A DNA stretch of 64,000 nucleotides from contig NC_091995.1 in assembly GCF_044704955.1 (NCBI RefSeq), positions 14,136,001 to 14,200,000 on the forward strand, written 5' to 3'. The notes under the pieces are model-generated. The model saw nothing but the letters and a program-made list of their open reading frames with translations. It did no database searches and was not told the origin of the DNA. This DNA is from Pristiophorus japonicus. Taxonomy: Eukaryota. This document shows positions 1-60,608 of the stretch, one piece after another. How positions within the stretch are numbered: position 1 is the first letter of the stretch; each line of letters begins with the position of its first letter. The position numbers and the translations under genes were made by a program.

Positions 1-274
1 GCTTCAAATGGCCAAAATACTGCTGATGCTGGAAATCTAAAATATAAGCAGAAGATGCTGAACATACTTCCAGCAGGTTTGGTTTATATTTATGGTACAA
101 TTTTGTATCGCTTATTGGAATAAGATTTCTATTCTGTCAGCTGTATGTGGTCATACTATTTGACTGCAATACAATTTGCATTTGGGAGATTTAAACCGGG
201 CTGCGGATCCACTATCGCCCGTTCTACACCATTTGCCGCCAAAGTCTTTAGCTCCTTATTCTGGGAATCTGAGT

Positions 275-290
275 GGCTCTGAAAAGAGCC
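275..290 (-). terminator. Orphan histone mRNA 3' stem-loop (with downstream HDE-like element)
   Basis: Minus strand ACACAAAA-GGCTCTTTTCAGAGCC-ACTCA, then TAAGGAGCTA at ~250-259. No histone ORF lies directly upstream. Confidence 0.9.
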
Positions 291-480
291 TTTTGTGTTC
301 AGATGGTCGGCCCCTCCTACCGCCTTAACATTTCAGGAAACGTACTCAATCTGCCTGACATTGGAGTGTGACGCCGCATCAAATAAAACTCCCAGCCAAG
401 GCAAATTGAATCATAATTGCTTCAAATGGCCAAAATACTGGGGGTGCGGGAAATCCAAAACACAAACAGAAAATGCCAGT

Positions 481-991: not shown

Positions 992-1600
992 CTACCTCCT
1001 CTTCGGGGCCCGTCGCTTCCGCCCCCCAGTCCGGGAGGATGCGGACCTCTTGGGGGCTTTTCTGGGCTTGGCCGCCGCGCCCTTGCGGGTGTTCTTGGCC
1101 GCCGGCTTCTTGACGCGTTTGTGGGCGGCGGGTTTGGCGGCCGCCGCTCTCTTGCGGGCCGGCTTCTTGGCGGCCCTTTTGCTCTTGGCGCCTCCTGCGG
1201 CCCCGTTCTCTCCTCCCTCGGCCTCCTCTTGTCCCCCGTCCTCCTTCTCCTCCTCTCGGTCCGGGTGCAGCGAGGCCGAGGAGGTGCCGGCGCCGCTCTC
1301 CGCCGGCGAGCCCTTGTTGGCCGTGGTACTGACCGACTGGGAGGGCCGGGCGCCGGCCTTGTCCAGCGGCTCGTAGCCGGAGGCCGAGATGGTCTTCTTC
1401 AGGGAGCCCAGCTTGGGGGCCGCCTGGCGCTCCTTGGTGGCGGCCACCGCCTCCAGGATCTGCTCGGCCACCGCGGCGGCGACGCCTTTCTGCGGCCGGT
1501 AGGCGGCCTTCTTCTTGGCGGCCGGCGCCGGGGGGAGGGCGGCGGCCTCATGAGGCGCGGCTGTGGGGAGCTCGGATTTGGCGGGCGCGATATCAGCCAT
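992..1600 (-). CDS. Divergent linker histone H1-like protein A (202 aa)
   Basis: ATG at 1600 (MADIAPAK). H1 globular helix 1/2 motifs VAEQILEAVAATKERQ and LGSLKKTISASGYE, K/A/P/R-rich tail, no introns, histone stem-loop downstream, TATA-like CTTATAG at ~1663-1669. Confidence 0.85.
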   Translation of the reverse strand: MADIAPAKSELPTAAPHEAAALPPAPAAKKKAAYRPQKGVAAAVAEQILEAVAATKERQAAPKLGSLKKTISASGYEPLDKAGARPSQSVSTTANKGSPAESGAGTSSASLHPDREEEKEDGGQEEAEGGENGAAGGAKSKRAAKKPARKRAAAAKPAAHKRVKKPAAKNTRKGAAAKPRKAPKRSASSRTGGRKRRAPKRR

Positions 1601-9075: not shown

Positions 9076-9532
9076 TCATCATCATCATCATCATAGGCAG
9101 TCCTTCGGAATCAAGGAAGTCTTGCTTCCACTCCTGAAGTGAGTTCTCTGGTAGCTGAACAATCCAATATGACAGCCACAGACTCTGTCACAGGTGGGGC
9201 AGATATTCGCCGACGGAAAGGGTGGGTGGGGCTGGTTTGCCGCACGCTCCTTCCGCTGCCTGCGCTTGACCTCTTCACGCACTCCGCGTTGAGATTCCAA
9301 GAGCTCAACGCCCTCCCGGACGCACTTTCTCCACCTAGGGCGGTCTTCGTCAAAGGACTCCCAGGTGTCAGTGGTGACGTCGTACTTTATCAGGGAGGCT
9401 TGTAACATTTTTGCTGTCCATCTTTGGCTCATTTGCCATGAAGGAGTTCCGCGTAGAGTATTTGCTTTGGGAGTCTCGTGTCTGGCATACGAACTATGTG
9501 GCCTGCCCAGCGAAGCTGATTCAAGTGTGGTC
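9076..9532 (-). mobile_element. RTE-clade LINE 3' part (continues at ~12036-12150 beyond the nested CR1)
   Basis: Encodes ..DTWESFDEDRPRWRK..CPTCDRVCGCHIGLFSYQRTH, with a (TGA)n tail. Confidence 0.85.
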
Positions 9533-12025
9533 ATAGAAACATAGAAAATAGGTGCAAGAGTAGGCCATTCGGCCCTTCGAGCCTGCACCGCCATTCAATG
9601 AGTTCATGGTTGAACATGCAACTTCAGTACCCCATTCCTGCTTTTTCGCCATACCCCTTGATCCCCGAGTAGTAAGGACTTCATCTAACTCCTTTTTGAA
9701 TATATTTAGTGAATTGGCCTCAACAACTTTCTGTGGTAGAGAATTCCACAGGTTCACCACTCTCTGGGTGAAGAAATTTCTCCTCATCTCGGTCCTAAAA
9801 GGCCTGTTCCTTATCCTTAGACTGTGACCCCTGGTTCTGGACTTCCCCAACATTGGGAACATTCTTCCTGCATCTAACCTGTCTAAACCCGTCAGAATTT
9901 AAAACATTTCTATGAGATCCCCTCTCTTTCTTCTGAACTCCAGTGAATACAAGCCCAGTTGATCCAGTCTTTCTTGATATGTCAGTCCTGCCATTCCAGG
10001 AATCAGTCTGGTGAACCTTCGCTGCACTCCCTCAATAGCAAGAATGTCCTTCCTCAAGTTAGGAGACCAAAACTGTACACAATACTCCAGATGTGGCCTT
10101 ACCAAGGCCCTGTACAACTGTAGTAACACATCCCTGCCCCTGTACTCAAATCCCCTCGCTATGAAGGCCAACATGTAATTTGCTTTCTTAACCGCCTGCT
10201 GTACCTGCATGCCAACCTTCAATGACTGATGTACCCTGACACCCAGGTCTCGTTGCACCTCCCCTTTTCCTAATCTGTCACCATTCAGATAATAGTCTTT
10301 CTCTCTGTTTTTACAACCAAAGTGGGTAACCTCACATTTATCCACATTATATTTCATCTGCCATGCATTTTCCCACTTACCTAACCTATCCAAGTCACTC
10401 TGCAGCTCATAGCATCCTCCTCACAGCTCACACTGCCACCCAACTTAGTGTCATCTGCATATTTGGAGATACTACATTTAATCCCCTCGTCTAAATCATT
10501 AATGTACATTGTAAACAGCTGGGGCCCCAGCACAGAACCTTGCGGTACCCCACAAATCACTGCCTGCCATTCTGAAAAGTACCCATTTACTCCTACTCTT
10601 TACTTCCTGTCTGCCAACCAGGTCTCAATCCATATCAGTACACTACCCCCAATCCCATGTGCTTTAACTTTGCACATTAATCTCTTGTGTGGGACCTTGT
10701 CGAAAGCCTTCTGAACGTCCAAATACATCAACTGGTTCTCCCTTGTCAATTCTACTGGAAACATCCTCAAAAAATTCCAGAAGATTTGTCAAGCATGGTT
10801 TCCCTTTCACAAATCCATGCTGACTTGGACCTATCATGTCACCTCTTTCCAAATGCGCTGCTATGACATCCTTAATAATTGATTCCATCATTTTACCCAC
10901 TACCAATGTCAGGCTGATCGGTCTATAATTCCCTGTTTTCTCTCACTCTCCTTTTTTAAAAAGTGGGGTTACATTGGCTACCCTCCACTCCATAGGAACT
11001 GATCCAGAGTTTATGGAATGTTGGAAAATAACTGTCAATGCATCCGCTATTTCCAAGGCCACCTCCTTAAGTACTCTGGGATGCAAACCATCAGGCCTCG
11101 GGATTTATCGGCCTTCAATCCCATCAATTTCCCCAACACAATTTCCCGACTAATAAGGACTTCCCTCAGTTCCTCCTTCTTACTAGACCTTCTGACCCCA
11201 TTTATATCCGGAAGGTTGTTTATGTCCTCCTTAGTGAATACCGAACCAAAGTACTTGTTCAATTGGTCTGCCATTTCTTTGTTCCCAGTTATGACTTCCC
11301 CTGATTCTGACTGCAGGGGACTTACGTTTGTCTTTACTAACCTTTTTCTCTTTACATATCTATACAAGCTTCTGCAGTCCATTTTAATGTTCCCTGCAAG
11401 CTTCTTCTCGTACTCTATTTTCCCTGCCCTAATCAAACCCTTTATCCTCCTCTGCTGAGTTCTACATTTCTCCCAGTCCCCGGGTTCACTGCTATTTCTA
11501 GCCAATTTGTATGCCACTTCCTTGGCTTTAATACTATCTCTGATTTCCCTTGATAGTCACGGTTGAGCCACCTTCTCTTTTTTATTTTTACGCCAGACAG
11601 GGATGTACAATGTTTGTAGTTCATCCATGCGGTCTCTAAATGTCTGCCATTGCCTAGCCACTGTCAACTCCTTAAGTATCATTTGCCAATCTACCCAAGC
11701 CAATTCACGTCTCATACCTTCAAAGTTACCCTTCTTTAATTTCGGTACCATGGTCTCTGAATTAACTGTTTCATTCTCCATCCTAATGTAAAATTCCACC
11801 TTATTATGGTCACTCTTCCCCAAGGGGCCTCGCACAATGAGATTGCTAATTAATCCTCTCTCATTACACAACACCCAGTCTAAGATGGCCTCCCCCCTAG
11901 TTGGTTCCTCGACATATTGGTCCAGAAAACCATCCCTTATGCATTCCAGGAAATCCTCCTCCACTGTATTGCTTCCAATTTGGTTAGCCCAATCTATATG
12001 CATATTAAAGTCACCCATGATAATT
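9533..12025 (-). mobile_element. CR1 LINE, 5'-truncated, frameshifted ORF2 (APE-RT)
   Basis: GDFNMHIDW, LDWVLCNE..GKSDHN, QHGFVKGKPCLTNLLEFF, RPHLEYCVQFWSP. Tail (TTTCTATG)n. Confidence 0.95.
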
Positions 12026-12341
12026 GCTGCACCTCGTCAGTGCTTCAATGCCGGGGATATTAGCCTGAGTGAGGACACCGAGGTTAGTGCGCCTGTCCTC
12101 CCAAGGGATTTGTAGGACCTTACGTAGACATCGTTGGTGATTATATGGTCCATGCTTTTGATCCATACAGAAGGCCCTGTAGACCATGAGTTTGGTGGTA
12201 CCCGCACTGGGTACCCAAAGATCAGGAGCTTGGGTCTGAAGTACAGCCAGAAATCGAGCAGCAACCTCTCCAAATAATGCAAGAGGGGCTGCAATCTCAC
12301 ACACCCCATAAAAACGTGGAACACCGCGCTCCCGCCACCCC

Positions 12342-12880
12342 CGTTGCTTCTAGCGCGTCGGGCTTGTGCCTTTAAATGGGAGCGCGGGAGACAGCTGGTC
12401 TCGCAGCTGATTGGCGGAGGCGGGAGGTGAAACCATGTGGGTAGCTTCTAGCGCGTCGGGCTCGTGGCTTGGTGGCGGCTTGCCCCTCCAGCTGATTGGC
12501 GGAGGCGGGAGGTGATACCATGTGGGTTGCTTCTAGCGCGTCGGGCTTGTGGCTTTGCGGCTGCTGGTCTCTCCAGCTGATTGGAGGTGGCAGGGAGGTG
12601 ATGACCACGTGGCCCCAACCCACGGTTGCTTCGAGCGCGTAGGGCTTGTGCCTTGGGCGGCGGCTTGTCCATCCAGCTGATTGGCGGAGGCGGGGAGATG
12701 ATGACCACGTGTTCACCTCCCTTCCCTTCCCACGGTTGCTTCTAGCGCGTCGTTCTCGTGGCTTTGCGGCGGCTGGTCTCTCCAGCTGATTGGCGGAGGC
12801 GGTGAGGTGATGACCATGTGGCCCTAGCCCACGGTTGCTTCTAGCGCGTCGGGCTTGCGCCTAGAAATAGGAGCGCGGGC
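12342..12880 (+). promoter_or_regulatory. Tandemly amplified CCAAT/GC-box promoter units upstream of H1-like gene B
   Basis: About 6 units of 85-110 bp (gttgcttctagcgcgtcggg...cagctgattggcggaggcggg) containing 5 inverted CCAAT boxes. TATA-like TTTAAAT at 12371 and TAGAAATA at 12862, each followed by GGAGCGCGGG. Confidence 0.75.
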
Positions 12881-12967
12881 AACGGCCGGCCCCGTTAGGC
12901 TGCGAAGGGCGGCGCCGAGGGAGGGGGGGCGGTGGGGTAGTACCGCTTGCACTTGCCGCTGCCCGAA

Positions 12968-13630
12968 ATGGCGAGACACGCTGCCAGCACCTGCCGCACG
13001 TCGGCGGCTGTCGTCGTCGCCCCTCTGCAGCGTAAAAGGCGCAAAAAGAAGAGGAATCGGCCGCGCCGGCCGTGCCAGCGACCGCGGCGCAAGCGAGTGC
13101 GGCGCATCAACCAGCTGATCCTGCAGGCGCTGTCGGCCCGCAAGCAGAGCGGCGGCCTGTCGCTGGCCTCGCTGCGGGAGGCGCTGCTGGCCAACGGCTA
13201 CGACGTGGAGAAGAACAAGACGTGCCTGCGGATGGCCGTGCGGGGGCTGGTGCGCAACGGCTCGCTGGTGAAGACCAAAAGGCGGGGCACCGCCACCGAC
13301 TACCTGCGGCTCAGCACGAAACAGGAGCAGCAGAAGGCGAAGAGGAAGATGCAGCAGAAGTGCAAGACTACCGCCGCCGCCACGCCGGTGTCCAGACCCC
13401 GGACCCGGGTCAAGGCCAAGCAGTCCAACAAGAAGAAATGCCGGATCAGGACCCCGCCCCCCAAGAAGCGGACCGAGTCCAGGATCCCGGCCCCCAGGAA
13501 GCGGACTGAGACCAGGATCCCGGCCCCCAGGAAGCGGACTGAGACCAGGAAGCGGACTGCGGTCAAAGTCACCACCAGGAAAACCAAAACTAAACCGAAA
13601 TTGACTAGGAAATCAAATTATTATAATTAA
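12968..13630 (+). CDS. Arg/Cys-rich divergent histone H1-like (protamine-like) protein B (220 aa)
   Basis: ATG at 12968 (gaaATGg). Winged helix INQLILQALSARKQSGGLSLASLREALLANGYDVEKNKTCLRMAVRGLVRNGSLVKT, basic tails, stem-loop 45 nt after the stop. Confidence 0.9.
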   Translation: MARHAASTCRTSAAVVVAPLQRKRRKKKRNRPRRPCQRPRRKRVRRINQLILQALSARKQSGGLSLASLREALLANGYDVEKNKTCLRMAVRGLVRNGSLVKTKRRGTATDYLRLSTKQEQQKAKRKMQQKCKTTAAATPVSRPRTRVKAKQSNKKKCRIRTPPPKKRTESRIPAPRKRTETRIPAPRKRTETRKRTAVKVTTRKTKTKPKLTRKSNYYN

Positions 13631-13675
13631 CGGGAGGCGGGAAAGAAGCAACAGCTTCAAACTCCAAACACAAAA

Positions 13676-13691
13676 GGCTCTTTTCAGAGCC
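13676..13691 (+). terminator. Histone 3' stem-loop of gene B, HDE-like AAAAAGGGCTG at ~13712-13722
   Basis: CACAAAA-GGCTCTTTTCAGAGCC-ACAA. Confidence 0.95.
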
Positions 13692-16062
13692 ACAATTTGT
13701 CTCTGCAAAAGAAAAAGGGCTGAAATTACCTGTACTAGATCAAAGCAAAATAACCGCGGAGGCTGGAATCTGAAATGAAAACAGAAAATGCTGGAATTCT
13801 CAGCGGGCCAGGCAGCATCTGTAGAGAAAAACACACCCCAGAGTTAACGCTTCAGGTCGACGACCCTTCGTCAGGACCCACATTACCAATTCACCAGAAG
13901 CTGAAATTCCCAATTTAGTTCGGGAATTCGTGCCCGTGCCAGTCCTTTTTTTGTGTGGAAAATTGATCCAATTGAGTCCCACACTTTCTCCCCTGGCACT
14001 CCCGCTCATGTCCCTGCAAGTTATCTTTTAGCCTGCTGAAAGAATAAGGGGAAGTTTTTATATTTCACTTAGTTTATTTCTGGAGGGCGACACACTCCCT
14101 GAATAGTACACGCTGGGTGGATATTGGCAGAGAAAGATCCGAAGGCTGAGATTTTTTAGGACAACAACCGGATCGGCCGCAATAATTGTCCAATCTTGTG
14201 TATTTCTGTGTAGGAAATAATTGGCTTGACTTATAACTGCGATTACCAAATCCGCCACTTCATATTTTCTGCTACAAATTGCGAGATGGCAGCAGTGCTC
14301 TAGCGTTCCTGTATCATTTGCAAGTGACTAGCGTGATTTACTTTCACTTTAGTGTTTCATCAAAGCTGTGCCATTGAATCCAATTACTAGCCGTTCGTTC
14401 TTGTCTGATTTTACCGATTTGAAGCGTTTTGGGACTTTTCTACATTCAAGGCGCTGTATAATTGCGAGTTGTCGATGTTGGGTTTCATTTTCCCCCGCAT
14501 AGGATGGGAGTAAGATGCATGTTCCAGTCCGTAATGGTCCACAGCCACTCAGGTTCTTAATGCATCTGTGGATTTGAGGCGAGCTGTTTCTCATGAGAAG
14601 TAGTGGTGGGTGGGCTAAATATGGTACCCCCTCTCCCAGGGAAGGGAAAGACCATCAAAATAACAAAGAGCGGTCTTGGCCCTAAACAAAAAAGTTCAGA
14701 TGTCTATTGGGACTTTCCCCTATAGGGTGGAAGGAAGAGAGGTGGAGTGGGACTAAATGGACAACTTTCAAAAACCCTACGCGTTTCCACAGTCTCCGAT
14801 AGTCCCGATCGCTGCTCTTGGAATTAGACCCCTCCGTTTGCGCTTCTACCGACACCAGTGAAGCTTCTGGAGATACGTGTGTAGGACCTCAGTAGCTGGA
14901 TCTCAGAAACATCCCTTCCTCAACGAGGACCAGCGCTGAGAAGTTGCTGCTGTTCATTGGCAAGACTGCTGTGGGTTCCTTCGACAGTGTAAGTGTATGT
15001 CAGTAAAGACATCCCCATCCTCACATAGAGCTCCGTATTCAGCCTTGGTTTGTGGTCCATAGTGTTGGTGCCTACTTTCAGGAGGTGTCGCCCACAGAGG
15101 CTTCTGATGTCGGTATGTTTTAAAGGTGATTAGGAAATGGCTCCCTGGTCGTCTTTTTGTGGATCCACTCTGCAACCAATTATTTCTGAAGCCTCTTTGG
15201 TGGTGTGGACCTTGAGTTGTCCCGAGTTTCTTACATAGAAACATAGAAAGTAGGTGCAGGAGTAGGCCATTCGGCCCTTCGATTCTGCACCACCATTCAA
15301 TAAGATCATGGCTGATCATTCACCTCAGTACCTCTTTCCTGCTTTCTCTCCATACCCCTTGATCCCTTTAGCCGTAAGAGCCACATCTACTTGGCCACTT
15401 TCCACTAGAGACAGGCCTTTCCCTGCTTTTCAAAGTGGGAAGTTTCTGGCTCGAAGATTAGACACCCTCGTCCCTTCCTTACAGCAGCATCTTGCTAGTA
15501 TGGCACCCAAACCAGAATTCTTTACCATTTTTGTCTTAAAAGCGACTACGCGTCCATCGCCTCCTCCAGAAGGTATCTGAGAGCTTTGAAGCGGACTGGG
15601 AGGGGAGAAAAAATATATATTTGCCATTATACTGGGGCTGTTTCTGAACAGATATCGCAGGGATCCGTCAAGTCGGCCTTTTGATGCCGGTGATGGCAGG
15701 CTGGACAAATCTCAATGTTTCTGTTCCTGAAATCCTACGATTGAGCACTTTCTCATAATCTCCCCATGGTCTCTAATTTTGAATCTTTGTGGGATTGCTT
15801 CTGCGTCTGCAGAGAAGTAACCCTGTTCAATTGTGCAAATATTAACACGTCAATATCAATGTTCATTATAAATCAGAGCCAATTTGCGCCTCTGCGAAGC
15901 GTGTCACAAAACGTAGTGCTGTATTGTGTATTTTCATGGGCAGTCCCTCGGGATAACTTTTAGTGTGTATTATATTCTACATTGTGTAGATATTGGGCAT
16001 TATATTCTACACATATTGGCGGTGTAGATTGGCTCAAGCTCGGATTTTTGCTTGCATTTGGT

Positions 16063-16078
16063 GGCTCTGAAAAGAGCC
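16063..16078 (-). terminator. Histone 3' stem-loop of gene C
   Basis: Minus strand AAC-GGCTCTTTTCAGAGCC-ACCAA, with weak HDE-like CCGAGCTTG at ~16035-16043. Confidence 0.95.
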
Positions 16079-16145
16079 GTTGAATTTATTTTAAAGCTCG
16101 ACAGTCTGCGCCTGTCCCATTTAAAGCAAATTTCCCCCCTTCTTT

Positions 16146-16925
16146 CTAGCGCCGCTTGGCGCCGATTCTGCGCCGCCGTCCCAGCTGCCGAGCCTTGCCG
16201 CCGCCGCCTCTGGCGGGCTTGTCTTTGCGGCGGCCCTTGGCGGCTGCCCCTTTGCGCTCGGCTCTGGGCTTGCGCCGAATCTGCGCCGCCCGGCTGGGCT
16301 TGGGCAAAGTGGCGGGCGGGCGGCCGCGCATGACCTGGGGGCAGCGGGAGGCGGCCGGGGTGGATTTGCCGGCGGCCAAGTGCTTCCTGATGAACGCCAT
16401 CGCCTCCGCCACCGCGTCTTCCTTGGGCGTTGTTACCGCCGCCGCCGGGCCGTACAGGAGGCTGCGGGAGCGGTTGAACCTGAAGGAGCCCGAGGCGCCG
16501 GTGCCGGCCGTCTGCACCAGCGAGCCCTTGCTCACCAGGTACCGCACGGTGTGGTTGACGCGGCTGTTGTTGCGCCTCACGTCGTAGCCCTTGGTGGACA
16601 GCGCCTTCTTGAGGGCGGCCAGCGAGATGCCGCGGCGCTCCTTGTTGGCGGCCGCCACCTGCAGGATGCGCTGGGTGACGGTCGGAGCCGCCGCCGCCGT
16701 GGCCGCCGCCGCCGCCTTCTTCTTGCGCCGCGGAGGGCTGCGCTTCTGCCGGCGTTGCGGCGGCCGCTGCGTCCGCCCCCTCCTCGTCCGCTTCTTCTTC
16801 TTCTTCTTGCTGCTGTCGCTGCTGCTCCTGGTGGTGGTGGCCAGGACCACTTTCTCCGCCGCGCCCGAATTCCCTGCCTCCTCCTCCTCCGCCGCCGCTG
16901 CCTTCTGGTGGTTGTCGTCACCCAT
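16146..16925 (-). CDS. Arg-rich histone H1-like protein C (259 aa)
   Basis: ATG at 16925 (MGDDNHQ). Well-conserved globular domain [70 protein letters not shown], followed by a stem-loop. Confidence 0.92.
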
Positions 16926-17065
16926 GCTTGGGGGCTCTATGGGGGGGGGTGGGGGGGGGAGTGGGAAGCAGATCTTTCCTCTCTCTTTCTCTCGCCCTGT
17001 CCCACGCCTCCGCACCAACACTTGGCTGGAACCAACAAGCGCCAGCCAGCCGCAAGCGGCCGCTC

Positions 17066-17083
17066 TTTATAGACAGGGGGCGG
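17066..17083 (-). promoter_or_regulatory. TATA box and adjacent GC box of gene C
   Basis: Minus strand TATAAA at 17066-17071, GGGGCGG at 17077-17083. Confidence 0.7.
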
Positions 17084-17561
17084 ACCTGGTGCAGCGCTCC
17101 AGCCCCCTGTGAATGGACGAAAAGTTGCTGGAAACGTTCAAAGTGGGAGGGGGGGGGCGGGGAGAGAAAGAGGGGGACAAGTTTAAATCCAATACCTAGG
17201 ATTGGGAATCAGGATCCGGTTAACCCATCTCCAACAACACGCATTATGAAGGAGCAAGGGGGAAACTTTGTGGTGTAGATAGATGAATGGCACTTGGTCT
17301 GAGTGCAATCTTTTGTATCTTCTCGTTCAAAATGACACACGCTGATCAGATTGCAGCTATCAGTAAAAGAGTAAACAGGTCGGGGCTTAGTCCGAAGACC
17401 TAAGACCTTTCAAAAGTCTTTAAAAGGTGACAAGTATCCAAAACCAGCAAGCTCAAGAAGTATGAGGACACATTGGAATGGCTGGGTTTGTTCTCATTGG
17501 AACACAGAAGGTTGAGAGGAGACCTCATTGAGGTGTACAAAATATTGAGGGGCCTGGACAT

Positions 17562-20078
17562 AGTATCAAACAAGAAATTAGGGATGCGTGCAATAAAGGT
17601 ACAGCAGTTATCATGGGTGACTTCAATCTACATATTGATTGGGCTAACCAAACTGGTAGCAATGCGGTGGAGGAGGATTTCCTGGAGTGTATTAGGGATG
17701 GTTTTCGAGACCAATATGTCGAGGAACCAACTAGAGAGCTGGCAATGTTAGACTGGGTGATGTACAATGAGAAAGGACTAATTAGCAATCTTGTTGTGCG
17801 TGGCCCCTTGGGAAATAGTGACCATAATGTGGTAGAATTCTTTATTAAGGTGGAGAGTGACAAAGTTAATTCAGAAACTAAGGTCTTGAACTTAAAGAAA
17901 GGTAACTTCGATGGTTTGAGGCGTGGATTGGCTAGAATAGACTGGCCAATTAAAGGGTTGACGGTGGATAGGCAATGACAAACATTTAAAGATCACATAG
18001 ATGAACTTCAGCAATTGTACATCCCTGTCTGGAGTAAAAATAAAATGGGGAAGGTGGCTCAACCGTGGCTAACAAGGGAAATTAAGGATAGTGTTAAATC
18101 CAAGGAAGAGGCATATAAATTTGCTAGAAAAAGCAGCAAACTTGAGGACTGGGAGAAATTTAGAATTCAGCAGAGGAGGTCAAAGGGTTTAATTAAGAGG
18201 GGGAAAATAGAGTACGAGAGGAAGCTTGCAGGGAACATAAAAAATGACTGCAAAAGTTTCTATAGATATGTGAAGAGAAAAAGATTAGTGAAGACAAACG
18301 TAGTCCGTTGCGGTCGGATTCAGGTGAATTTATAATGGGGAACAAAGAAATGGCAGACCAATTGACAAGTACTTTGGTTCTGTCTTCATGAAGGAAGACA
18401 CAAATAACCTTCCGGATGTACTAGGGGACTGAGGGTCTAGTGAGAACGAGGAACTGAAAGATATTCTTATTAGGCGGAAAATTGTGTTGGGGAAATTGAT
18501 GGGATTGAAGGCCGATAAATCCCCGGGGCCTGATAGTCTGCATCCCAGAGTACTTAAGGAAGTGGCCCTAGAAATAGTGATCATTGTCCAACAGTCTATG
18601 GACTCTGGATCAGTTCCTATGGACTGGAGGGTATCTAATGTAACACCACTTTTTAAAAAGAGAGGGAGAGAGAAAATGGGTAATTATAGACCGGTTAGCC
18701 TGACATCAGTAGTGGGGAAAATGTTGGAATCAATTATTAAGGATGAAATAGCAGCATATTTGGAAAGCAGTGACAGGATCGGTCCAAGTCAGCATGGATT
18801 TATGAAAGGGAAATCATGCTTGACAAATCTTCTGGAATTTTTTGAGGATGTAACAAGTAGAGTGGACAAGGGAGAACCAGTGGATGTGGTGTATTTGGAC
18901 TTTCAAAAGGCTTTTGACAAGGTCCCACATAAGAGATTGGTGTGCAAAATCAAAGCACATGGTATTGGGGGTAATGTACTGATGTGGATAGAGAACTGGT
19001 TGGCAGACAGGAAGCAAAGAGTCAGGATAACCGGGTCCTTTTCAGAATGGCAGGCAGTGACTAGTGGAGTGCCGCAGGGGTCAGTGCTGGGACCCCAGCT
19101 ATTTACTATATATATTAATGATTTAGATGAAGGAATTGAGTGTAGTATCTCCAAGTTTGCAGATGACACTAAACTGGGTGGCGGTGTGAGCTGTGAGGAG
19201 GATGCTAAGAGGCTGCAGGGTGACTTGAACAGGTTAGGTGAGTGGGCAAATGCATGGCAGATGAAGTATAATGTGGATAAATATGAGGTTATCCACTTTG
19301 GGGGCAAAAACATGAAGGCAGAATATTATCTGAATGGTGGCAGATTAGGAAAAGGGGAGGTGCAATGAGACCTGGGTGTTATGGTAAATCAGTCATTGAA
19401 AGTTGGCATGCAGGTACAGCAGGTGGTGAAGAAGGCAAATGGTATGTTGGCCTTCATAGCTAGGGTATTTGAGTATAGGAGCAGGGAGGTCTTACTGCAG
19501 TTGTACAGGGCCTTGGTGAGGCCTCACCTGGAATATTGTGTTCAATTTTGGTCTCCTAATCTGAGGAAGTATGTTCGTGCTATTGAGGGAGTGCAGCGAA
19601 GGTTCACCAGACTGATTCCCGGGATGGCAGGACTGGCATATGAGGAGAGATTGGATCAACTGGGCCTTTTTACACTGGAGTTTAGAAGGATGAGAGGGGA
19701 TCTCATAGAAACATAAGATTCTGACGGGATTGGACAGGTTAAATGCGCGAAGAATGTTCCCGATGTTGGGGAAGTCAAGAACCAGGGAACACAGTCTTAG
19801 GATAAGGGGTAGGCCATTTAGGACTGAGATGAGGAGAAACTTCTTCACTCAGAGAGTTGTTAACCTGTGGAATTCCCTGCCGCAGAGAGTTGTTGATGCC
19901 AGTGCATTGGATATATTCAAGAGGGAGTTAGATACGGCTAAAAGGATCAAGGGGTATCGAGAGAAAGCAGGAAAGGGGTACTGAGGGAATGATCAGCCAT
20001 GATCTTATTGAATGGTGGTGCAGGCTCGAAGGGATGAATGACCTACTCCTGCACCTATTTTCAATGTTTCTATGTTTC
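17562..20078 (+). mobile_element. CR1 LINE, 5'-truncated, disrupted ORF2
   Basis: GDFNLHIDW, RT motifs [19 protein letters not shown] and KFADD. 3' tail tttctatgtttcta. Confidence 0.95.
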
Positions 20079-24253: not shown

Positions 24254-27200
24254 TGTTGTGTATGGAGAAAGAGTCAGACTGAACACTGTGAGCTCAAAGT
24301 AAAATGTGACCTTAGTCTTTTATTGCAGGTCTCCAGAGTGTCTCTCCAGCCTGTGAAGCCTTCTTAAATACCTGTGCTCCCAAGCGATTAGGAGATCCCT
24401 TGGGACTCCGGGGAATTATGAGATCCCTTGGGACTCCGGGGAATGAGCCCTCTGGTGGCTATACAGAGTAAATACATGTCCACATATATAACAACATCCC
24501 CCCCTCCCCAATGTCAATAGTGTAACTATTTACAATGTGAGTCGATCTGGGGCCCTTCTTGCCCTGGTTGATCATCACGGTGTGAAAGCTGGTGTTGTTG
24601 AATCATTTGTTAGGCCCTTGCTGGGCTGCTGTACAGCTGGCCTTGCTGGATTGCCTGGTGTGTTGGGTCCTACGGGGCTGCTGTGGATGATGGGTTCTGC
24701 TTCGTGGTCAACCGTGGTGCCGGTTGCCACTGGTGTGTGTGTTGGGGGATCAAAAAAGGTAGGGTCCAGGGTGGGTTGCTCAGGATAGTCCATGAATCTG
24801 AGTTTGATTTGGTCCAAGTGTTTCCGGTGAATGAGTCCATTTGAAAGTTTGACCCGAAACACCCTGCTCCCCTCTTTGGCCACGACAGTGCCAGGAAGCC
24901 ACTTGGGACTTTGTCCATAATTTAATACAAATACAGGATCATTGACTTCAATCTCGCGTGACACATTTGTGCTATCGTGGTATGCACTTTGTTGAAGCCG
25001 CCTGCTCTCTACCTGTTCATGTAGATCAGGGTGAATTAATGAGAGACTTGTCTTAAGTGCTCTTTTCATGAGCAGTTCAGGAGGTGGGATCCCAGTGAGT
25101 GAGTGGGGTCTTGTGCGGCAGCTAAGCAGGACTCGGGATAGGCGAGTCTGCAGTGAGCCTTCAGTTACCCTCTTCAAGCCTTGCTTGATGGTTTGCACTG
25201 CTCTCTCTGCCTGACCATTGGACGCTGGTTTAAACGGGGCAGATGTGACTTGTTTGATCCCGTTACTGGTCATGAATTCTTTGAACTCAGCATTGGTAAA
25301 ACATGGCCCATTGTCGCTCACCAGGACATCGGGTAAGCCGTGTGTGGCAAACATGCCCCGCAGGCTTTCAGTGGTGGCAGCGGACGTGCTAGCCGACATT
25401 ATCTCACATTCAATCCACTTGGAGTACGCATCTACAACCACAAGGAACATTTTATCCAAGAACGGGTCTGTATAGTCGACGTGTACCCTAGACCACAGTT
25501 TGGAGGGCCAAGACCATAAACTTAGCGGCCTCTCCCTGGGCACATTGCTTAACTGCGAGCATGGATTACATCTATGAACGCAGGACTCTATGTCCGCATC
25601 GATACCGGGCCACCGCACATGGGATCTGGCTATCGCTTTCATCATTACGATGCCTGGGTGGGTACTTTGAAGGTCTCTGCCCTTCTTGGGGATCACTACT
25701 CGATTGCCCCACAGAAGGCCGTCTGCCTGTATAGGCATTTCATCTTTGTGCCGCTGGAACGGCTTTATCCTTTCTTGCATTTCCACTGGGACACTGGACC
25801 AGCTCCCGTGAAGCACACAGCTTTTGTCTAGAGATAATAAGGGGTCTTGGCTTGTCCAGGCTTTGATCTGCCAGGCAGTGACGGGTGATTGCTCACTCTC
25901 AAATGCTTCCATAACATGGCTAGATCTGCGGGCTGCGCCATTTCCACCCCCGTGGTGAGCAATGGCAGCCTACTGAGAGCATCGGTGCAGTTTTCTGTGC
26001 CTGGTCTGTGGCGAATGGCGTAGTTGTATGCGGACAACGTGAGCGCCCATCTCTGGATGCGGGCCTGTACTCTCGGAAAACAGGGATATAAGTGGCTTAT
26101 GGTCAGTTTCCAATTCGATTTTTAGCCCAAACAGGTATTGATGAATTTTGTTTACCCCCTAAAAACCCGCTAACACTTCTTTTTCAATCATGCTGTCAGC
26201 TCTCTTGGCCTTAGACAGACTTCTGGATGCATAAGTTACAGTTTCCCAAAATCATTAGCTTATTGCAATACACACCCAATGCCATATGATGATACATCAC
26301 ATGCTAGTACCAAACACTTACATGGATCATACGACACAAGCAATTTGTTTGAGCAAATTTTCTCGCTTTTGCAAAGGCATTTTCTTGGTTTTTGCCCCAA
26401 ACCCATTCGTCCCCTTTTCATAGTAAGACATGTAATGGTTCTAGCAGTGTGCTGAGACCCGTTAAGAAGTTACCAAAGTAGTTCAGGAGTCCCAGAAACG
26501 ACCACAGCTCCGTCACATTCTGTGTCCTCGGTGCGTTCTCAACTGCCTCCGTCTTCGCGTTGGTGGGCCTGATGCCGCCTGCCGCAATCCTCCTTCCCAG
26601 GAACTCCACTTCAGGTGCCAGGAAAATGCACTTAGAGTGTTTTAACCTGAGCCCCACGTGGTTGAGTTGACTAAGAACCTCCTCCAGGTTCTGCAGATGC
26701 TCGACTGTGTTCCGACCTGTGACCAAGATGTCGTCCTGGAGGACCACGGTGTGCGGGACCGACTTCAGTAAGCTTTCCATGTTTCTCTGGAATATCGCCG
26801 CCGCTGATTGGATTCCAAATGGGCATCTGTTATAAACAAAAAGACCTTTGTGTGTGTTGATGCAGGTGAGGGCCTTCGATGATTCCTCCAGTTCCTGCGT
26901 CATGTAGGCTGACGTCAGATCCAGCTTTCCTCCCGCCAGCGTTGCAAAGAGGTCATCGGCTTTTGGTAGTGGGTATTGGTCCTGCAGGGAGAAACGATTG
27001 ATAGTTACTTTGTAATCGCCACAGATTCTGACGGTGCCGTCTCCCTTGAGGACTGGGACAGTAGGACTGGCCCACTTGCTGAACTCAGTTGGTGAAATGC
27101 TGCCCTCTCATTGCAGCCAGTCTAGCTCGATCTCTACCCTTTCTCTCATCATATACGGTACTGCTCTCGCCTTGTGATGGATGGGTCGCGCCCCCGGAAT

Positions 27201-28773
27201 TAGGTGGATCTGCACTTTTGCTCCTTGGAAGTTCCCGATGCCTGGTTCGAACAGCGAAGGAAATTTGTTTAAGACCTGGGCACACGAAGTGTCGTCAGTG
27301 GACGATAGCGCTCAGACGTCATCACAGTTCCTGCGTATCTTTCCCAGCCAGCTCCTGCCAAGCAGTGTGGGACCATTGCCTGGTACCATCCAGAATAGTA
27401 GCTTGTGCACCGCTCCATCATAGGAGATCTTTACGGTAGCACTGCCAATTACAGGAATCAGTTCTTTAGTGTAAGTTCTTAGTCTCGTGTGAACTGGAGT
27501 TAAGACTGGCCTTGAGGCCTTGTTGCACCACAATCTTTCTAAAGTCGTTTTGCCCATGATGGACTGGCTCGTGCCCGTGTCCAGCTCCATTGACACTGGG
27601 AGTCCATTTCCTTTAACATTCAGCATTATCGGGGGACAATTCGTGGTGAATGTGTGCACCCAATGTATCTCTGCCTCCTCTATCTGAGGCTCTGGTTCGT
27701 AGTGATCCTCCGTGGATCTATCCTCCTCTGCAACGTGGTGGTTTGAAAGTTTAACAGGCTTAGCAGCACATTCGTTGGTGGTGTCCCATTGTTCCACAGC
27801 CCTTGCAAATGTATCCTTTGAATCAGCATGAATGGAAACGATGATCACCCCCGCAGCGCCAACAAGGTGTTAATGGCCTTGCATTCATCACCTTTGACGG
27901 TGGACTCTGAGACATCTGCGGACATGTAGCTGCAGGTATGTGTGACCTGCCCTGTACGTTATGGTTCGAACATCACTTTGTTCACAGTACTTGTAGCAGC
28001 ACTTGTGTGATGAGAGATTTGCTGGTGGCAATGACCAGCTGGGCTATCACTATGGCCTTACTCAAGGCTGGGGTCTCTACAGTCAAAAGCTTGCGAAGTA
28101 TGGTTTTGTGGCCAATGCCAAGTAGGAAAAAGTCTCTGAGCATGTGCTCCAAATGTCCTTCAAATTCGCAATGTCCTGTAAGGCATCTTAGCTCAGCGAC
28201 ATAACTCACCACTTCCTGGCCTTCAGAACTTTTGTAGGTGTAGAATCGGTACTTCGCCATCAGAACGCTTTCCTTCGGGTCCAAATGCTGTCGGACCAGT
28301 GTGCACAAATCGCCGTACGATTTCTCCGTTGGTTTCGCTGGAGTGAGCAGGTTCTTCCTGAGGCCATACGTTGGTGCCCCACAGACAGTGAGGAGGATCA
28401 CTCTACATTTGGCAGTGCTCTCTTCCCCATCTAGCTCGTTGGCCACGAAGTATTGGTCGAGTCGCTCCACAAAAGTTTCCCAATCATCTCCCTCCGAGAA
28501 TTTCTCCAGGATGCCCACTGTTCTCTGCATCTTTGGGTTCGCTATCTGTATCTCGTCGCCAGTTGTGTATGAAGAAAGAGTCTGACTGAACACTGTGAGC
28601 TCAAAGTAAAGTGTGACCTTAGTCTTTTATTGCAGGTCTCCAGGAGTGCCTCTCCAACCTGTGAAGCCTCCTTAAATACCTGTGCTCCCAAGGGATTATG
28701 GGATCCCTTGGGACTCCGGGGAATTAGCCCTCTGGTGGCTGTACAGAGTATATACAAGTCCACATATATAACA
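24254..28773 (-). mobile_element. Full-length degenerate Gypsy (Mag-like) LTR retrotransposon
   Basis: LTRs 24254-24493 and 28562-28773, 5-bp TSD CCGAG, PBS TGGCGACGAG at 28552-28561 (tRNA-Ser-like), PPT at ~24497-24510. Gag 27982-28530, protease LDTG, RT LQDD, RNase H, integrase 24575-25912. Confidence 0.95.
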
Positions 28774-34502: not shown

Positions 34503-37422
34503 CATAAGAACATAAGAATTAGGAACAGGAGTAGGCCATCTAGCCCCACGAGCCTGCTCCGCCATTCAATAAGATCATGGCTGATCTGGCCATGGACTCA
34601 GCTCCACTTACCCGCCCGCTCCCCGTAACCCTTAATTCCCTGATTGGTTAAAAATCTATCTATCTGTGATTTGAATACATTCAATGAGCTAGCCTCAACT
34701 GCTTCCTTGGGCAGAGAATTCCACAGATTCACAACCCTCTGGGAGAAGAAATTCCTTCTCAACTCGGTTTTAAATTGGCTCCCCCGTATTTTGAGGCTGT
34801 GCCCCCTAGTTCTAGTCTCCCCGACCAGTGGAAACAACCTCTCTGCCTCTATCTTGTCTATCCCTTTCATGATTTTAAATGTTTCTATAAGATCTGTATT
34901 TGTAATACAGATTGAGGATGAGGAAGTTGTGTCAGAAACGAGCGTACTATGCTTAAACAAAGGGGACTACAGTGGGATGAGGGCAGAGTTGGCTAAAGTA
35001 GACTGGAAACAAGGACTAAACGGTAGCACAATTGAGGAACAGTGGAGGACTTTTAAGGAGCTCTTTCATAATGCGCAACAAAAATATATTCCAGTGAAAA
35101 AGAAGGGCGGCAAGAGAAGAGATAACCAGCCGTGGATAACCAAGGAAATAAAGGAAAGTATCAAATCAAAGACCAATGCGTATAAGGTGGCCAAGGTTAG
35201 TGGGAAACTAGAGGATTGGGAAAATTTTAAGCAACAGCAAAGAATGACTAAAAAAAGCAATAAAGAAAGGGAAGATAGATTATGAAGGTAAACTTGCGCT
35301 AAACATAAAAACAGATAGTAAAAGCTTTTACAGATATATAAAACGGAAAAGAGTGACTAAAGTAAATGTTGGTCCCTTAGAAGATGAAAAGGGGGATTTA
35401 ATAATGGGAAATGTGGAGATGGCTGAGACCTTAAACAATTATTTTGCTTCCGTCTTCACAGTGGAAGACACAAAAACCATGCCAAAAATTGCTGGTCATA
35501 GGAATGTGGGAAGGGAGGACCTTGAGATGATCACTATCACTAGGGAGGTAGTGCTGGACAGACTAATGGGACTGAAGGTAGACAAGTCCCCTGGTCCTGA
35601 TGAAATGCATCCCAGGGTATTAAAAGAGATGGCGGAAGTTATAGCAGATGCATTTGTTATAATCTACCAAAATTCTCTGGACTCTGGGGAGGTACCAGCG
35701 GATTGGAGAGCAGCTAATGTAACGCCTCTGTTTAAAAAAGGGGACAGGCAAAAGGCAGGTAACTATAGGCCGGTTAGTTTAACATCTGTAGTGGGGAAAA
35801 TGCTTGAAACTATCATTAAGGAAGAAATAGCGGGACATCTGGATAGGAATAGTGCAATCAAGCAGACGCAGCATGGATTCATGAAGGGGAAATCATGTTT
35901 AACTAACTTGCTGGAATTCTTTGAGGATATAACGAGCATGGTGGATAGAGGTGTACCGATGGATGTGGTGTATTTAGATTTCCAAAAGGCATTCGATAAG
36001 GTGCCACACAAAAGGTTACTGCTGAAGATAAAGGTACGCGGAGTCAGAGGAAATGTATTAGCATGGATAGAGAATTGGCTGGCGAACAGAAAGCAGAGAG
36101 TCGGGATAAATGGGTCCTTTTCCGGTTGGAAATCAGTGGTTAGTGGTGTGCCACAGGGATCAGTACTGGGACCACAACTGTTTACAATATACATAGATGA
36201 CCTAGAAGAGGGGACAGAGTGTAGTGCAACAAAATTTGCAGATGACACTAAGATTAGTGGGAAAGCGGGTTGTGTAGAGGACACAGAAAGGCTACAAGGA
36301 GATTTGGATAGGTTAAGCGAATGGGCTAAGGTTTGGCAGATGGAATATAATGTCGAAAAGTGTGAGGTCATCCACCTTGGTAAAAAAAACAGTAAAAGGG
36401 AATATTATTTGAATGGGGAGAAATTACAACATGCTGTGGTGCAGAGGGACCTGGGGGTCCTTGTGCATGAATCCCAAAAGGTTAGTTTGCAGGTGCAGCA
36501 GGTAATCAGGAAGGCAAATGGAATGTTGGCCTTCATTGCGAAAGGGATGGGGTACAAAAGCAGGGAGGTGTTGCTGCAACTGTATAAGGTATTGGTAAGG
36601 CCGCACCTGGAGTACTGCGTGCAGTTTTGGTCACCTTACTTAAGGAAGGATATACTAGCTTTGGAAGGGGTACAGAGACGATTCACTAGGTTGATTCGAG
36701 AAATGAGGGGGTTACCTTATGATAGATTGAGTAGACTGGGTCTTTACTCGTTGGAGTTCAGAAGGATGAGGGGTGATCTTATAGAAACATTTAAAATCAT
36801 GAAAGGGATAGACAAGATAGAGGCAGAGAGGTTGTTTCCATTGGTGGGGGAGACTAGAACTAGGGGGCACAGCCTTAAAATACGGAGGAGCCAATTTAAA
36901 ACCGAGTTGAGAAGGAATTTCTTCTCCCAGAGGGCTGTGATCTGTGGAATTCTCTGCCCAAGGAAGCAGTTGAGGCTAGCTCATTGAATGTTTTCAAGTC
37001 AAAGATAGATAGATTTTTAACCAATAAGGGAATTAAGGGTTACGGGGAGAGGGCGGGTAAGTGGAGCTGAGTCCACGACCAGATCAGCTATGATCTTATT
37101 GAATGGCGGAGCAGGCTCGAGGGGCTAGATGGCCTACTCCTGTTCCTAATTCTTATGTTCTTATGTTCTTATCACCCCTCATCCTTCTGAACTCCAATGA
37201 GTAATGACCCAGTCTACTCAATCTATCATCATAAGGTAACCCCCTCATCTCCAGAACCAGCCTAGTGAATCGTCTCTGTACCCCCTCCAAAGCCAGTATA
37301 TCCTTCCTTAAGTAAGGTGACCAAAACTGCACGCAGTACTCCAGGTGCGGCCTTACCAATACCCTATACAGTTGCAGCAGGACCTCACTGCTTTTGTACT
37401 CCATCCCTCTCGCAATGAAGGC
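34503..37422. mobile_element. Plus-strand CR1 (34895-37170, 544-aa RT ORF) nested in an antisense CR1 of the same subfamily, inside a tRNA-SINE
   Basis: Minus-strand copy split between 34503-34894 and 37171-37422. SINE head at 34465-34502, SINE body from ~37426. Confidence 0.9.
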
Positions 37423-60499: not shown

Positions 60500-60608
60500 G
60501 CTTTACAACTGCACCTGGTATTCCATCTAAGTACTAACCAAGCCTGACTCTGCTTAGCTTCTAAGATCAGACAAGATCGGTCATTTTCAGAGTAGTTTGT
60601 CCATAGAC
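60500..60608 (-). pseudogene. Degenerate 5S rRNA copy
   Basis: gcacctggtattcc..aagtactaacca..ctgcttagcttctaagatcagacaagatcgg..ttcag..ccatagac matches the reverse complement of 5S. Confidence 0.85.

What the first reader, a model, noticed from the sequence alone, without database searches (positions are those of the whole stretch)
12968..13630. H1-like gene B looks like a protamine/H1 hybrid with five cysteines
Seen: the protein starts MARH. It has an N-terminal block RKRRKKKRNRPRRPCQRPRRKRVRR, Arg (about 40) exceeding Lys (about 32), and 5 Cys. The conserved wing [10 protein letters not shown] is replaced by RRGTATDYLRL. Known: typical H1s largely lack Cys, whereas mammalian P1 and some shark protamines are Arg/Cys-rich and cross-link by disulfides. 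Inference: a candidate disulfide-forming sperm chromatin protein or protamine precursor.
Basis: partly seen in the sequence, partly recalled or inferred. Interest (0 to 1): 0.72.

Follow-up and report, generated by a model that had tools for sequence, protein, structure and literature searches.

The report
Arginine-rich shark linker histone variant
This is an intact gene for an unusual arginine-rich version of the DNA-packing protein histone H1, from a family seen only in sharks and rays, which probably helps pack DNA in developing sperm, though its cysteines are mostly not shared with its relatives and nothing shows yet that they cross-link.

Summary
B is not a protamine/H1 hybrid. It is an intronless H1 gene ending in a histone stem-loop, one of three divergent H1 genes in the window. 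It belongs to a 12-member elasmobranch H1 clade (100/99 support) in which all members are Arg-enriched and none keeps the canonical wing loop. Wing loss is described for fish sperm PL-I, and a language-model search puts both B and its Cys-free closest relative beside spermatid-H1 or protamine-like clusters, so a male-germline role is the best reading (about 55%). No expression data support it. The cysteines are weakly supported. The closest relative (Heptranchias) has none. A Mobula relative also has five and shares one site (C36). At 2.3%, scattered singly, they are far from a protamine pattern. B is closer to replication-dependent H1s than to the H5/H1.0 line from which protamine-like proteins are said to derive. 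Verdict: new variant of a known kind; disulfide function about 20%, cleaved protamine precursor under 10%.

The parts
12340..12880 (+). Upstream tandem repeat (85-110 nt units) with five inverted CCAAT boxes and GC boxes; probable promoter region, CpG o/e 0.88
   Evidence: promoter function is inferred
12968..13630 (+). Gene B: intronless Arg-rich H1 variant, 220 aa
13031..13105 (+). N-terminal basic block, residues 22-46 (13 Arg, 5 Lys, C36)
   Evidence: same block in P0001 and P0026
13073..13075 (+). C36, the only Cys shared with a relative (Mobula P0026); Tyr in 7 of 11 relatives
13106..13312 (+). Winged-helix globular domain, residues 47-115; GC3 0.99; contains C86 at a position that is Arg in 8 of 11 relatives
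13280..13312 (+). Altered wing loop and last strand (RRGTATDYLRL)
13313..13627 (+). C-terminal tail, 17 Arg, 22 Lys of 105 residues, Thr-rich, no S/TPxK motif, C132 and C158
13447..13550 (+). 33-nt (11-aa) tandem repeat, 3.2 copies, absent from relatives
13671..13715 (+). Histone 3' UTR stem-loop (RF00032, 37.7 bits, gathering 34) followed by a purine-rich HDE-like run
   Evidence: HDE judged by eye
16146..16925 (-). Neighbour gene C: a different Arg-rich H1 variant with intact wing and its own stem-loop (16039-16083)
992..1600 (-). Neighbour gene A: highly diverged H1-like ORF (no Pfam hit) with stem-loop (916-961)

Best explanation
B is a functional, intronless linker-histone H1 variant of an Arg-rich elasmobranch clade that arose from the replication-dependent (stem-loop) H1 line. 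Shown: winged-helix domain, basic tails, stem-loop, clade membership. Inferred: its mRNA is processed by the SLBP/U7 route, so it is more likely made in spermatogonia or spermatocytes (like mammalian H1t) than stored as a polyadenylated late-spermatid mRNA. The protein binds DNA mostly through the Arg block and the Arg/Lys tail, while the altered wing and lost basic residues (S61, E71, C86) weaken specific docking on the nucleosome. It would act as a germline H1 or intermediate protein during the histone-to-protamine change. The cysteines are mostly recent, tolerated single-base gains that are not needed for this role; C36 may be older.
For: Pfam Linker_histone 33.9 bits over cut-off 22.4; model matches H1 chains best. 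Stem-loop and no polyA hexamer in 1 kb downstream. 12-row clade 100/99 spanning 9 named species, 8 sharks and 1 ray. Arg 10.6-20.5% in all 12 against 0.9-3.2% in 5 canonical H1 rows and 7.1% in the H1t row. 0 of 12 keep the GTGASGS loop and 7 of 11 relatives have deleted it. PMC4584325 section 14 says this hairpin is dispensable in the sperm PL-I of Mullus. No S/TPxK motif, as in HILS1 (PMC6069787 passages). ESM features: B first hit 'spermatid-specific linker histone H1' 0.93; Cys-free P0001 first hits 'protamine-like' 0.94 and the same spermatid cluster 0.93, so the likeness does not need Cys. Intact ORF, GC3 0.99 in the domain, end branch 0.22 like P0001's 0.20.
Against: No expression evidence for any tissue. 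ESM names are automatic, and no negative control (such as H5) was run. Arg enrichment also marks the erythrocyte histone H5. A stem-loop without polyA signal fits late spermatids poorly. B's exact sequence is not in the 15-billion protein collection, whereas neighbours A and C are. Two of the three B1 members have five Cys, and five is above the neutral expectation under most parameter sets, so 'incidental' may understate them.
Confidence: 0.55

Rival explanations
1. One reading: B is a sperm or late-spermatid protein whose cysteines form inter-chain disulfides that lock condensed chromatin, as in eutherian protamines.
For: B and Mobula P0026 are the two most Arg-rich members and each has five Cys. 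They share C36 inside the Arg block and group together in the N-half tree even with that column dropped (88/87, not starred; one change). With no CpG excess, P(>=5) is 0.001-0.018, and the ORF's CpG o/e is 0.98. Cys-containing H1-like PL-I proteins are known (Zhang et al. 1999, title seen in a reference list).
Against: Closest relative by identity, P0001, has 0 Cys, and B groups with it in the whole-domain tree (98/70). Four of five sites are not shared with P0026. 2.3% Cys, single and scattered. All five are TGC, and C36 and C86 lie one base from the Tyr or Arg codons of relatives. The gene was picked for its Cys.
Confidence: 0.2
2. B is a somatic differentiation variant, an H5-like Arg-rich H1 of nucleated erythrocytes or other resting cells, or a general embryonic H1.
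For: H5 is Arg-enriched and compacts erythrocyte chromatin. The gene has a CpG-island promoter region with CCAAT and GC boxes and a normal stem-loop.
Against: B scores 40-54 bits with replication-dependent H1s and only 12-19 bits with H1.0/H5. The wing, used for nucleosome binding, has decayed across the family. Nearest ESM clusters are germline-named.
Confidence: 0.15
3. B is a redundant paralogue under relaxed selection or a young pseudogene; Cys, the tail repeat and the domain changes are drift.
For: Three conserved basic positions lost in the domain (S61, E71, C86). Private tail repeat. Not in the protein collection. Neighbour A is degenerate, there is an orphan stem-loop at 250-295, and the Mobula relative has lost helix 3.
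Against: Open frame, 68 of 69 domain codons end in G/C, CpG retained, stem-loop intact, branch not longer than its relative's; several new basic residues gained (R88, K102, R105).
Confidence: 0.12
4. B is a precursor that is cleaved to release a protamine-like peptide, or a true H1-protamine fusion.
For: The N-block is 52% Arg and 72% basic over 25 residues. Cleavage of PL precursors is known in molluscs, tunicates and a liverwort (PMC13148410 passages).
Against: In those cases the released peptide is in the C-terminal half; B's tail is only 16% Arg with Lys above Arg. The N-block is colinear with the tails of relatives, not an inserted module. MARH is not conserved.
Confidence: 0.07

Closest known systems
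Unstudied elasmobranch 'histone H1-like' gene models: Heptranchias perlo XP_067830038 (P0001), Mobula hypostoma XP_062903895 (P0026) and nine paralogues
   Same: Same clade, Arg-rich N-block, diagnostic helix 1-2 sequence, decayed wing; 60% identity to P0001.
   Different: B has five Cys (P0001 none), a private 11-aa tail repeat and the longest genuine tail; P0026 has lost helix 3.
PL-I sperm proteins (Mullus surmuletus PL-I; Cys-containing PL-I of invertebrates)
   Same: Winged helix plus Arg/Lys-rich tails; wing hairpin motif dispensable (PMC4584325 section 14).
   Different: PLs are described as derived from replication-independent H5/H1.0; B is closer to replication-dependent H1 and has a stem-loop. 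Replacement of histones in sperm is not shown. The Mullus sequence was not compared directly.
Mammalian H1t (H1.6)
   Same: Testis variant encoded within a histone gene cluster (PMC8015243 passage), raised Arg, few S/TPxK motifs.
   Different: Not orthologous: the pig H1t cluster row P0091 sits among mammalian canonical H1s, keeps the wing, and has 7% Arg and no Cys.
Mammalian HILS1 (H1.9)
   Same: Divergent domain, no S/TPxK motif; B's first ESM hit is a cluster with this kind of name.
   Different: HILS1 lies in a sarcoglycan intron outside the cluster, is listed as replication-independent and has a short tail; orthology not tested by tree.
Cysteine protamines (eutherian P1/P2; dogfish scylliorhinines, recalled)
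   Same: Arg cluster near the N-terminus, some Cys, pI about 12.
   Different: Protamines are 50-110 aa with up to 80% Arg and have no winged helix; B is 220 aa, 18% Arg, 2.3% Cys. No scylliorhinine sequence was available to compare.

Membership tests
Linker histone H1/H5 | Winged-helix globular domain | tested here: met
   Pfam PF00538 33.9 bits > 22.4; three helices and hairpin in the model; the top five Foldseek hits are H1 chains
Linker histone H1/H5 | Basic N- and C-terminal tails flanking the domain | tested here: met
   net charge +64
Canonical somatic H1 | Lys-rich tails, S/TPxK motifs, GTGASGS wing | tested here: not met
   R/(R+K) 0.56 against 0.03-0.10; 0 motifs; wing altered
Replication-dependent histone gene | No intron, 3' stem-loop, no polyA signal | tested here: met
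   (1 kb downstream scanned for two hexamers)
Replication-dependent histone gene | U7-binding downstream element | tested here: inconclusive
   purine-rich run seen by eye; no U7 pairing test
Replication-dependent histone gene | Clustered with core histone genes | tested here: inconclusive
   Only H1-like genes found in 64 kb; three queries carrying H4, H2B or H3 parts hit only H1 loci, H2A not queried; no genome held
Protamine-like (PL-I) | Winged helix with Arg- and Lys-rich tails | tested here: met
   R+K 32.7%, Arg 18.2%
Protamine-like (PL-I) | 30-50 residue protamine-like stretch in the C-terminal half (PMC13148410) | tested here: inconclusive
   Tail is 37% basic but 16% Arg; the Arg peak (13 of 30) is N-terminal
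Protamine-like (PL-I) | Descent from replication-independent H5/H1.0 | tested here: not met
   40-54 bits with H1.1-H1.4/GH1, 12-19 bits with H1.0/H5; stem-loop; no H5 row was available for the tree
Protamine-like (PL-I) | Sperm-specific and displaces somatic histones | not testable with these tools
   needs tissue RNA and sperm protein data
Protamine (P type) | Short (50-110 aa), very high Arg, no globular domain | tested here: not met
   220 aa, 18% Arg, winged helix
Cysteine-cross-linked sperm proteins | Cys kept among orthologues | tested here: inconclusive
   1 of 5 sites shared, with 1 of 11 relatives; closest relative has none; P0026 has five
Cysteine-cross-linked sperm proteins | Disulfide bonds in mature sperm | not testable with these tools
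   needs reducing and non-reducing gels or mass spectrometry
H1t (H1.6) orthologue | Groups with H1t in the domain tree | tested here: not met
HILS1 (H1.9) orthologue | Shared ancestry and sarcoglycan-intron location | not tested
   no HILS1 sequence among fetched proteins; B lies among H1-like genes and repeats

The most novel reading that the evidence does not exclude
Elasmobranchs carry their own cluster of stem-loop H1 genes that is turning into protamine-like sperm proteins, independently of the H5/H1.0 route. Within it an Arg- and Cys-rich sub-lineage (B and the Mobula gene, sharing C36) cross-links sperm chromatin by disulfides, and the Mobula copy, whose helix 3 is replaced by an Arg/Gln run, shows a later step. 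It would be a living vertebrate series of H1-to-cysteine-protamine intermediates.
Probability: 0.15. Interest if true: 0.7.

Novelty: new variant of a known kind. Interest (0 to 1): 0.42.

Why it matters
The idea that protamines evolved from H1 rests mostly on invertebrates and one teleost genus. A shark-and-ray clade of Arg-rich, wing-decayed H1 genes, apparently from the replication-dependent line, gives named genes in nine species with which to test it in vertebrates using ordinary testis RNA and sperm proteomics. The relatives carry only automatic 'histone H1-like' names, and ten literature searches of the open-access library found no description of the family. If the cysteines prove incidental, B is an ordinary fast-evolving germline H1.

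Tried and rejected
No whole genome is held, so synteny, copy number and dN/dS could not be examined. Sequencing runs: no RNA holder listed; one run, X1, of unrecorded kind. Its contigs gave depth in 19 of 30 bins over 12700-17300; those on B start at 12907 and end at 13678, and the bins without cover include DNA just upstream of B and between B and C. This would fit an RNA library, but the kind and tissue are unknown and holes prove nothing, so it is not used as evidence of expression. The MARH start as a protamine P1 signature was rejected (relatives start differently). The match of C132 to a Cys in 4 of 11 relatives was not counted: it lies in a poorly aligned tail and is a gap in the three-way alignment. 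P0158's five Cys were not counted as support: three lie in a C-terminal extension that no other member has. Folding B's 3' end gave an alternative pairing (z -1.13) and was uninformative; the Rfam hit is the test used. 'scylliorhinine' found 0 papers, so the known dogfish proteins could not be compared. Earlier scan findings: none in three look-ups. No complex prediction was run. Longer or shorter protein forms were not searched (all three searches used near lengths), and the two profile searches scored only 8000 candidates, so further orthologues may exist.

Full report
Observation. The ORF at 12968-13630 (+) encodes 220 aa with 40 Arg, 32 Lys and 5 Cys at residues 9, 36, 86, 132 and 158. All five Cys codons are TGC. 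Residues 22-46 hold 13 Arg and 5 Lys. Against chicken GH1 the wing reads RRGTATDYLRL for [10 protein letters not shown]. Contigs of run X1 match 12907-13508 and 13521-13678 with no differences, covering all five Cys codons; the run may be the window's own sample, so this only argues against typing-level error.

Anatomy. Pfam places a linker-histone domain at 47-109 (33.9 bits, cut-off 22.4). The AlphaFold model from a 12-row alignment has three helices and both wing strands, block pLDDT 80-91 over the domain and disordered tails. The five Foldseek hits at E<=0.001 are all H1 chains. The gene has no intron and ends in a histone stem-loop at 13671-13715 (RF00032, 37.7 bits) with a purine-rich run behind it and no AATAAA or ATTAAA in the next kilobase. 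Upstream lies a GC-rich tandem repeat with five inverted CCAAT boxes. The tail has a private 33-nt repeat and no S/TPxK motif. Two more H1-like genes with stem-loops (A at 992-1600, C at 16146-16925) and an orphan stem-loop at 250-295 lie in the window. No core histone gene was found with the three queries that carry H4, H2B or H3 parts.

Family. The single-sequence search gave 5 hits among 2137 candidates, all from sharks; profile searches and the full scan added more. In a globular-domain tree of 55 rows (54 chosen by hand from about 190 fetched proteins, plus B; gene A left out; 81 columns, many forks open) B lies in a 12-row clade with support 100/99. The 11 relatives come from Heptranchias (3), Heterodontus, Pristiophorus, Scyliorhinus, Hemiscyllium, Chiloscyllium, Stegostoma, Rhincodon and Mobula. 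The window is therefore taken to be from a shark or ray (inference). B, Heptranchias P0001 and Mobula P0026 form a subgroup, B1 (97/68; 86/65; not starred). All 12 are Arg-enriched (10.6-20.5%) against 0.9-3.2% in five canonical rows. None keeps the GTGASGS loop, and 7 of 11 relatives have deleted it. So the Arg block and the wing change are family traits. In Rhincodon and Hemiscyllium a family member shares a contig with another Arg-rich H1 variant, which suggests an old cluster. B scores 40-54 bits against H1.1-H1.4 and GH1 but 12-19 bits against H1.0, H5 and H1x; no H5 or H1.0 row was available for the tree. The pig H1t cluster row falls among mammalian canonical H1s, away from B.

Cysteines. 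Of 11 relatives, none shares C9, C86 or C158; one (P0026) shares C36, where 7 have Tyr; C86 replaces an Arg found in 8. C132 aligns with Cys in four relatives in one alignment and with gaps in another, and is not counted. The closest relative by identity, P0001 (60%), has no Cys. Against that, P0026 is the most Arg-rich member and also has five Cys, and it groups with B in the N-half tree with the C36 column dropped (88/87; one change), while the whole-domain tree groups B with P0001 (98/70), where P0026 is a long, aberrant branch. A mutation model on B's own codons expects 0.8-3.3 Cys; P(>=5) is 0.001-0.018 without CpG excess and up to 0.23 with it. The ORF's CpG o/e of 0.98 favours the lower values, but the gene was selected for this trait. 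The fair reading is a mild excess, one possibly old Cys in the Arg block, and no conserved network. At 2.3% and scattered singly the pattern is unlike cysteine protamines (their higher Cys share is recalled, not from a call).

Is it alive? The frame is open, 68 of 69 domain codons end in G or C, the stem-loop is intact, and the branch (0.22) equals that of P0001 (0.20). B has lost three basic positions (S61, E71, C86) and gained others (R88, K102, R105). From recall, S61 and E71 correspond to the second DNA-binding site of H5; this was not checked in a call. B's exact sequence is absent from the protein collection while A and C are present; the ESM Atlas holds it. Neither shows expression.

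How it probably works. Shown: an H1 fold with Arg-rich tails, decayed wing and stem-loop mRNA end. Inferred: weaker specific nucleosome docking and stronger tail-driven DNA binding, in the male germline. Support is indirect. PMC4584325 (section 14 read) states that the G(V/T)GASGS hairpin is dispensable in the sperm PL-I of Mullus when nucleosomes are absent. PMC11607694 (section 10 read) notes hairpin loss in other PL precursors. PMC6069787 (passages) reports that spermatid HILS1 lacks S/TPxK motifs and condenses DNA poorly. The ESM feature search ranks a spermatid-specific H1 cluster first for B (0.93), and protamine-like and spermatid H1 clusters first for Cys-free P0001 (0.94, 0.93); these are automatic names, leads only, with no negative control. 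The stem-loop points to an H1t-like stage rather than a stored late-spermatid mRNA (PMC8015243 passages on stem-loop mRNAs and the cluster location of H1t; the staging is my inference). Odds: germline H1 variant with incidental Cys 0.55, disulfide cross-linker 0.2, somatic H5-like role 0.15, decaying paralogue 0.12, cleaved precursor or fusion 0.07 (not strictly exclusive).

Comparison with what is known. B is a member of the H1 family and of the stem-loop gene class. It works, probably, like a PL-I or testis H1, but fails the descent test for PL proteins as described in PMC13148410 and PMC13251019 (passages) and fails the size and Arg tests for protamines. Cys-containing H1-like sperm proteins are already known (Zhang et al. 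1999, title seen in a reference list only), and a PL-I-named transcript is testis-enriched in coelacanth (PMC3750513 passages). PMC13148410 says sharks use PLs, citing Bloch 1976; my recall is that the dogfish has Cys protamines, which I could not check. PMC12216123, PMC8812575, PMC10858212 and PMC9138527 were seen as passages and added only general background. Ten searches returned no paper describing this elasmobranch clade; I saw listings and abstract starts only, not all hits were listed, the library lacks most subscription and older papers, and no supplements were read.

Verdict. Observation confirmed; interpretation partly supported. New variant of a known kind, interest 0.42. The family is the more interesting object than B's five cysteines.

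Noticed in passing
P0026 (Mobula hypostoma XP_062903895), residues about 84-100: Helix 3 and the first wing strand are replaced by an Arg/Gln run, with no precomputed Pfam hit; Arg 20.5%, five Cys. Could be a frameshift, an assembly error or a step towards a protamine.
   Followed up: partly
window 16146-16925 (-): Gene C is a second Arg-rich H1 variant (Arg 15.4%) with an intact wing; it groups with Mustelus, Hypanus and Hemitrygon proteins (99/92), so it is a separate conserved elasmobranch lineage. Its 3' UTR has an AATAAA before the stem-loop.
   Followed up: partly
window 992-1600 (-): Gene A has a stem-loop and an H1-like start and tail but a domain too diverged for Pfam, with an acidic stretch; present in UniRef.
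   Followed up: partly
window 130-318 and 786-984: The 3' end of gene A, with stem-loop and downstream element, is duplicated (75% identity) without a coding region: an orphan stem-loop at 250-295.
   Followed up: partly
window 13667-13693, 939-965, 273-299: 27 bases around the stem-loop are identical in B, A and the orphan copy, although the proteins are very different; strong constraint or gene conversion.
   Followed up: no
window 12340-12880: The upstream region of B is a tandem array that multiplies an inverted CCAAT plus GC-box unit five times; A also has a GC-rich tandem array upstream (about 1750-2300).
   Followed up: no
P0141, P0164, P0126 (Carcharodon, Hemiscyllium, Rhincodon): A third Arg-rich shark H1 lineage (100/100), on the same contigs as B-family genes in two species.
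   Followed up: no
window 60503-60608 (-): Isolated 5S rRNA-like match (46 bits), probably a pseudogene or SINE head.
   Followed up: no
window 24575-28530 (-); 9500-12020, 17600-19720, 34870-36990: Remnants of an LTR retrotransposon (gag, protease, RT, integrase-like ORFs) and several CR1-like LINE copies, judged from ORF translations; labels are from recall.
   Followed up: no
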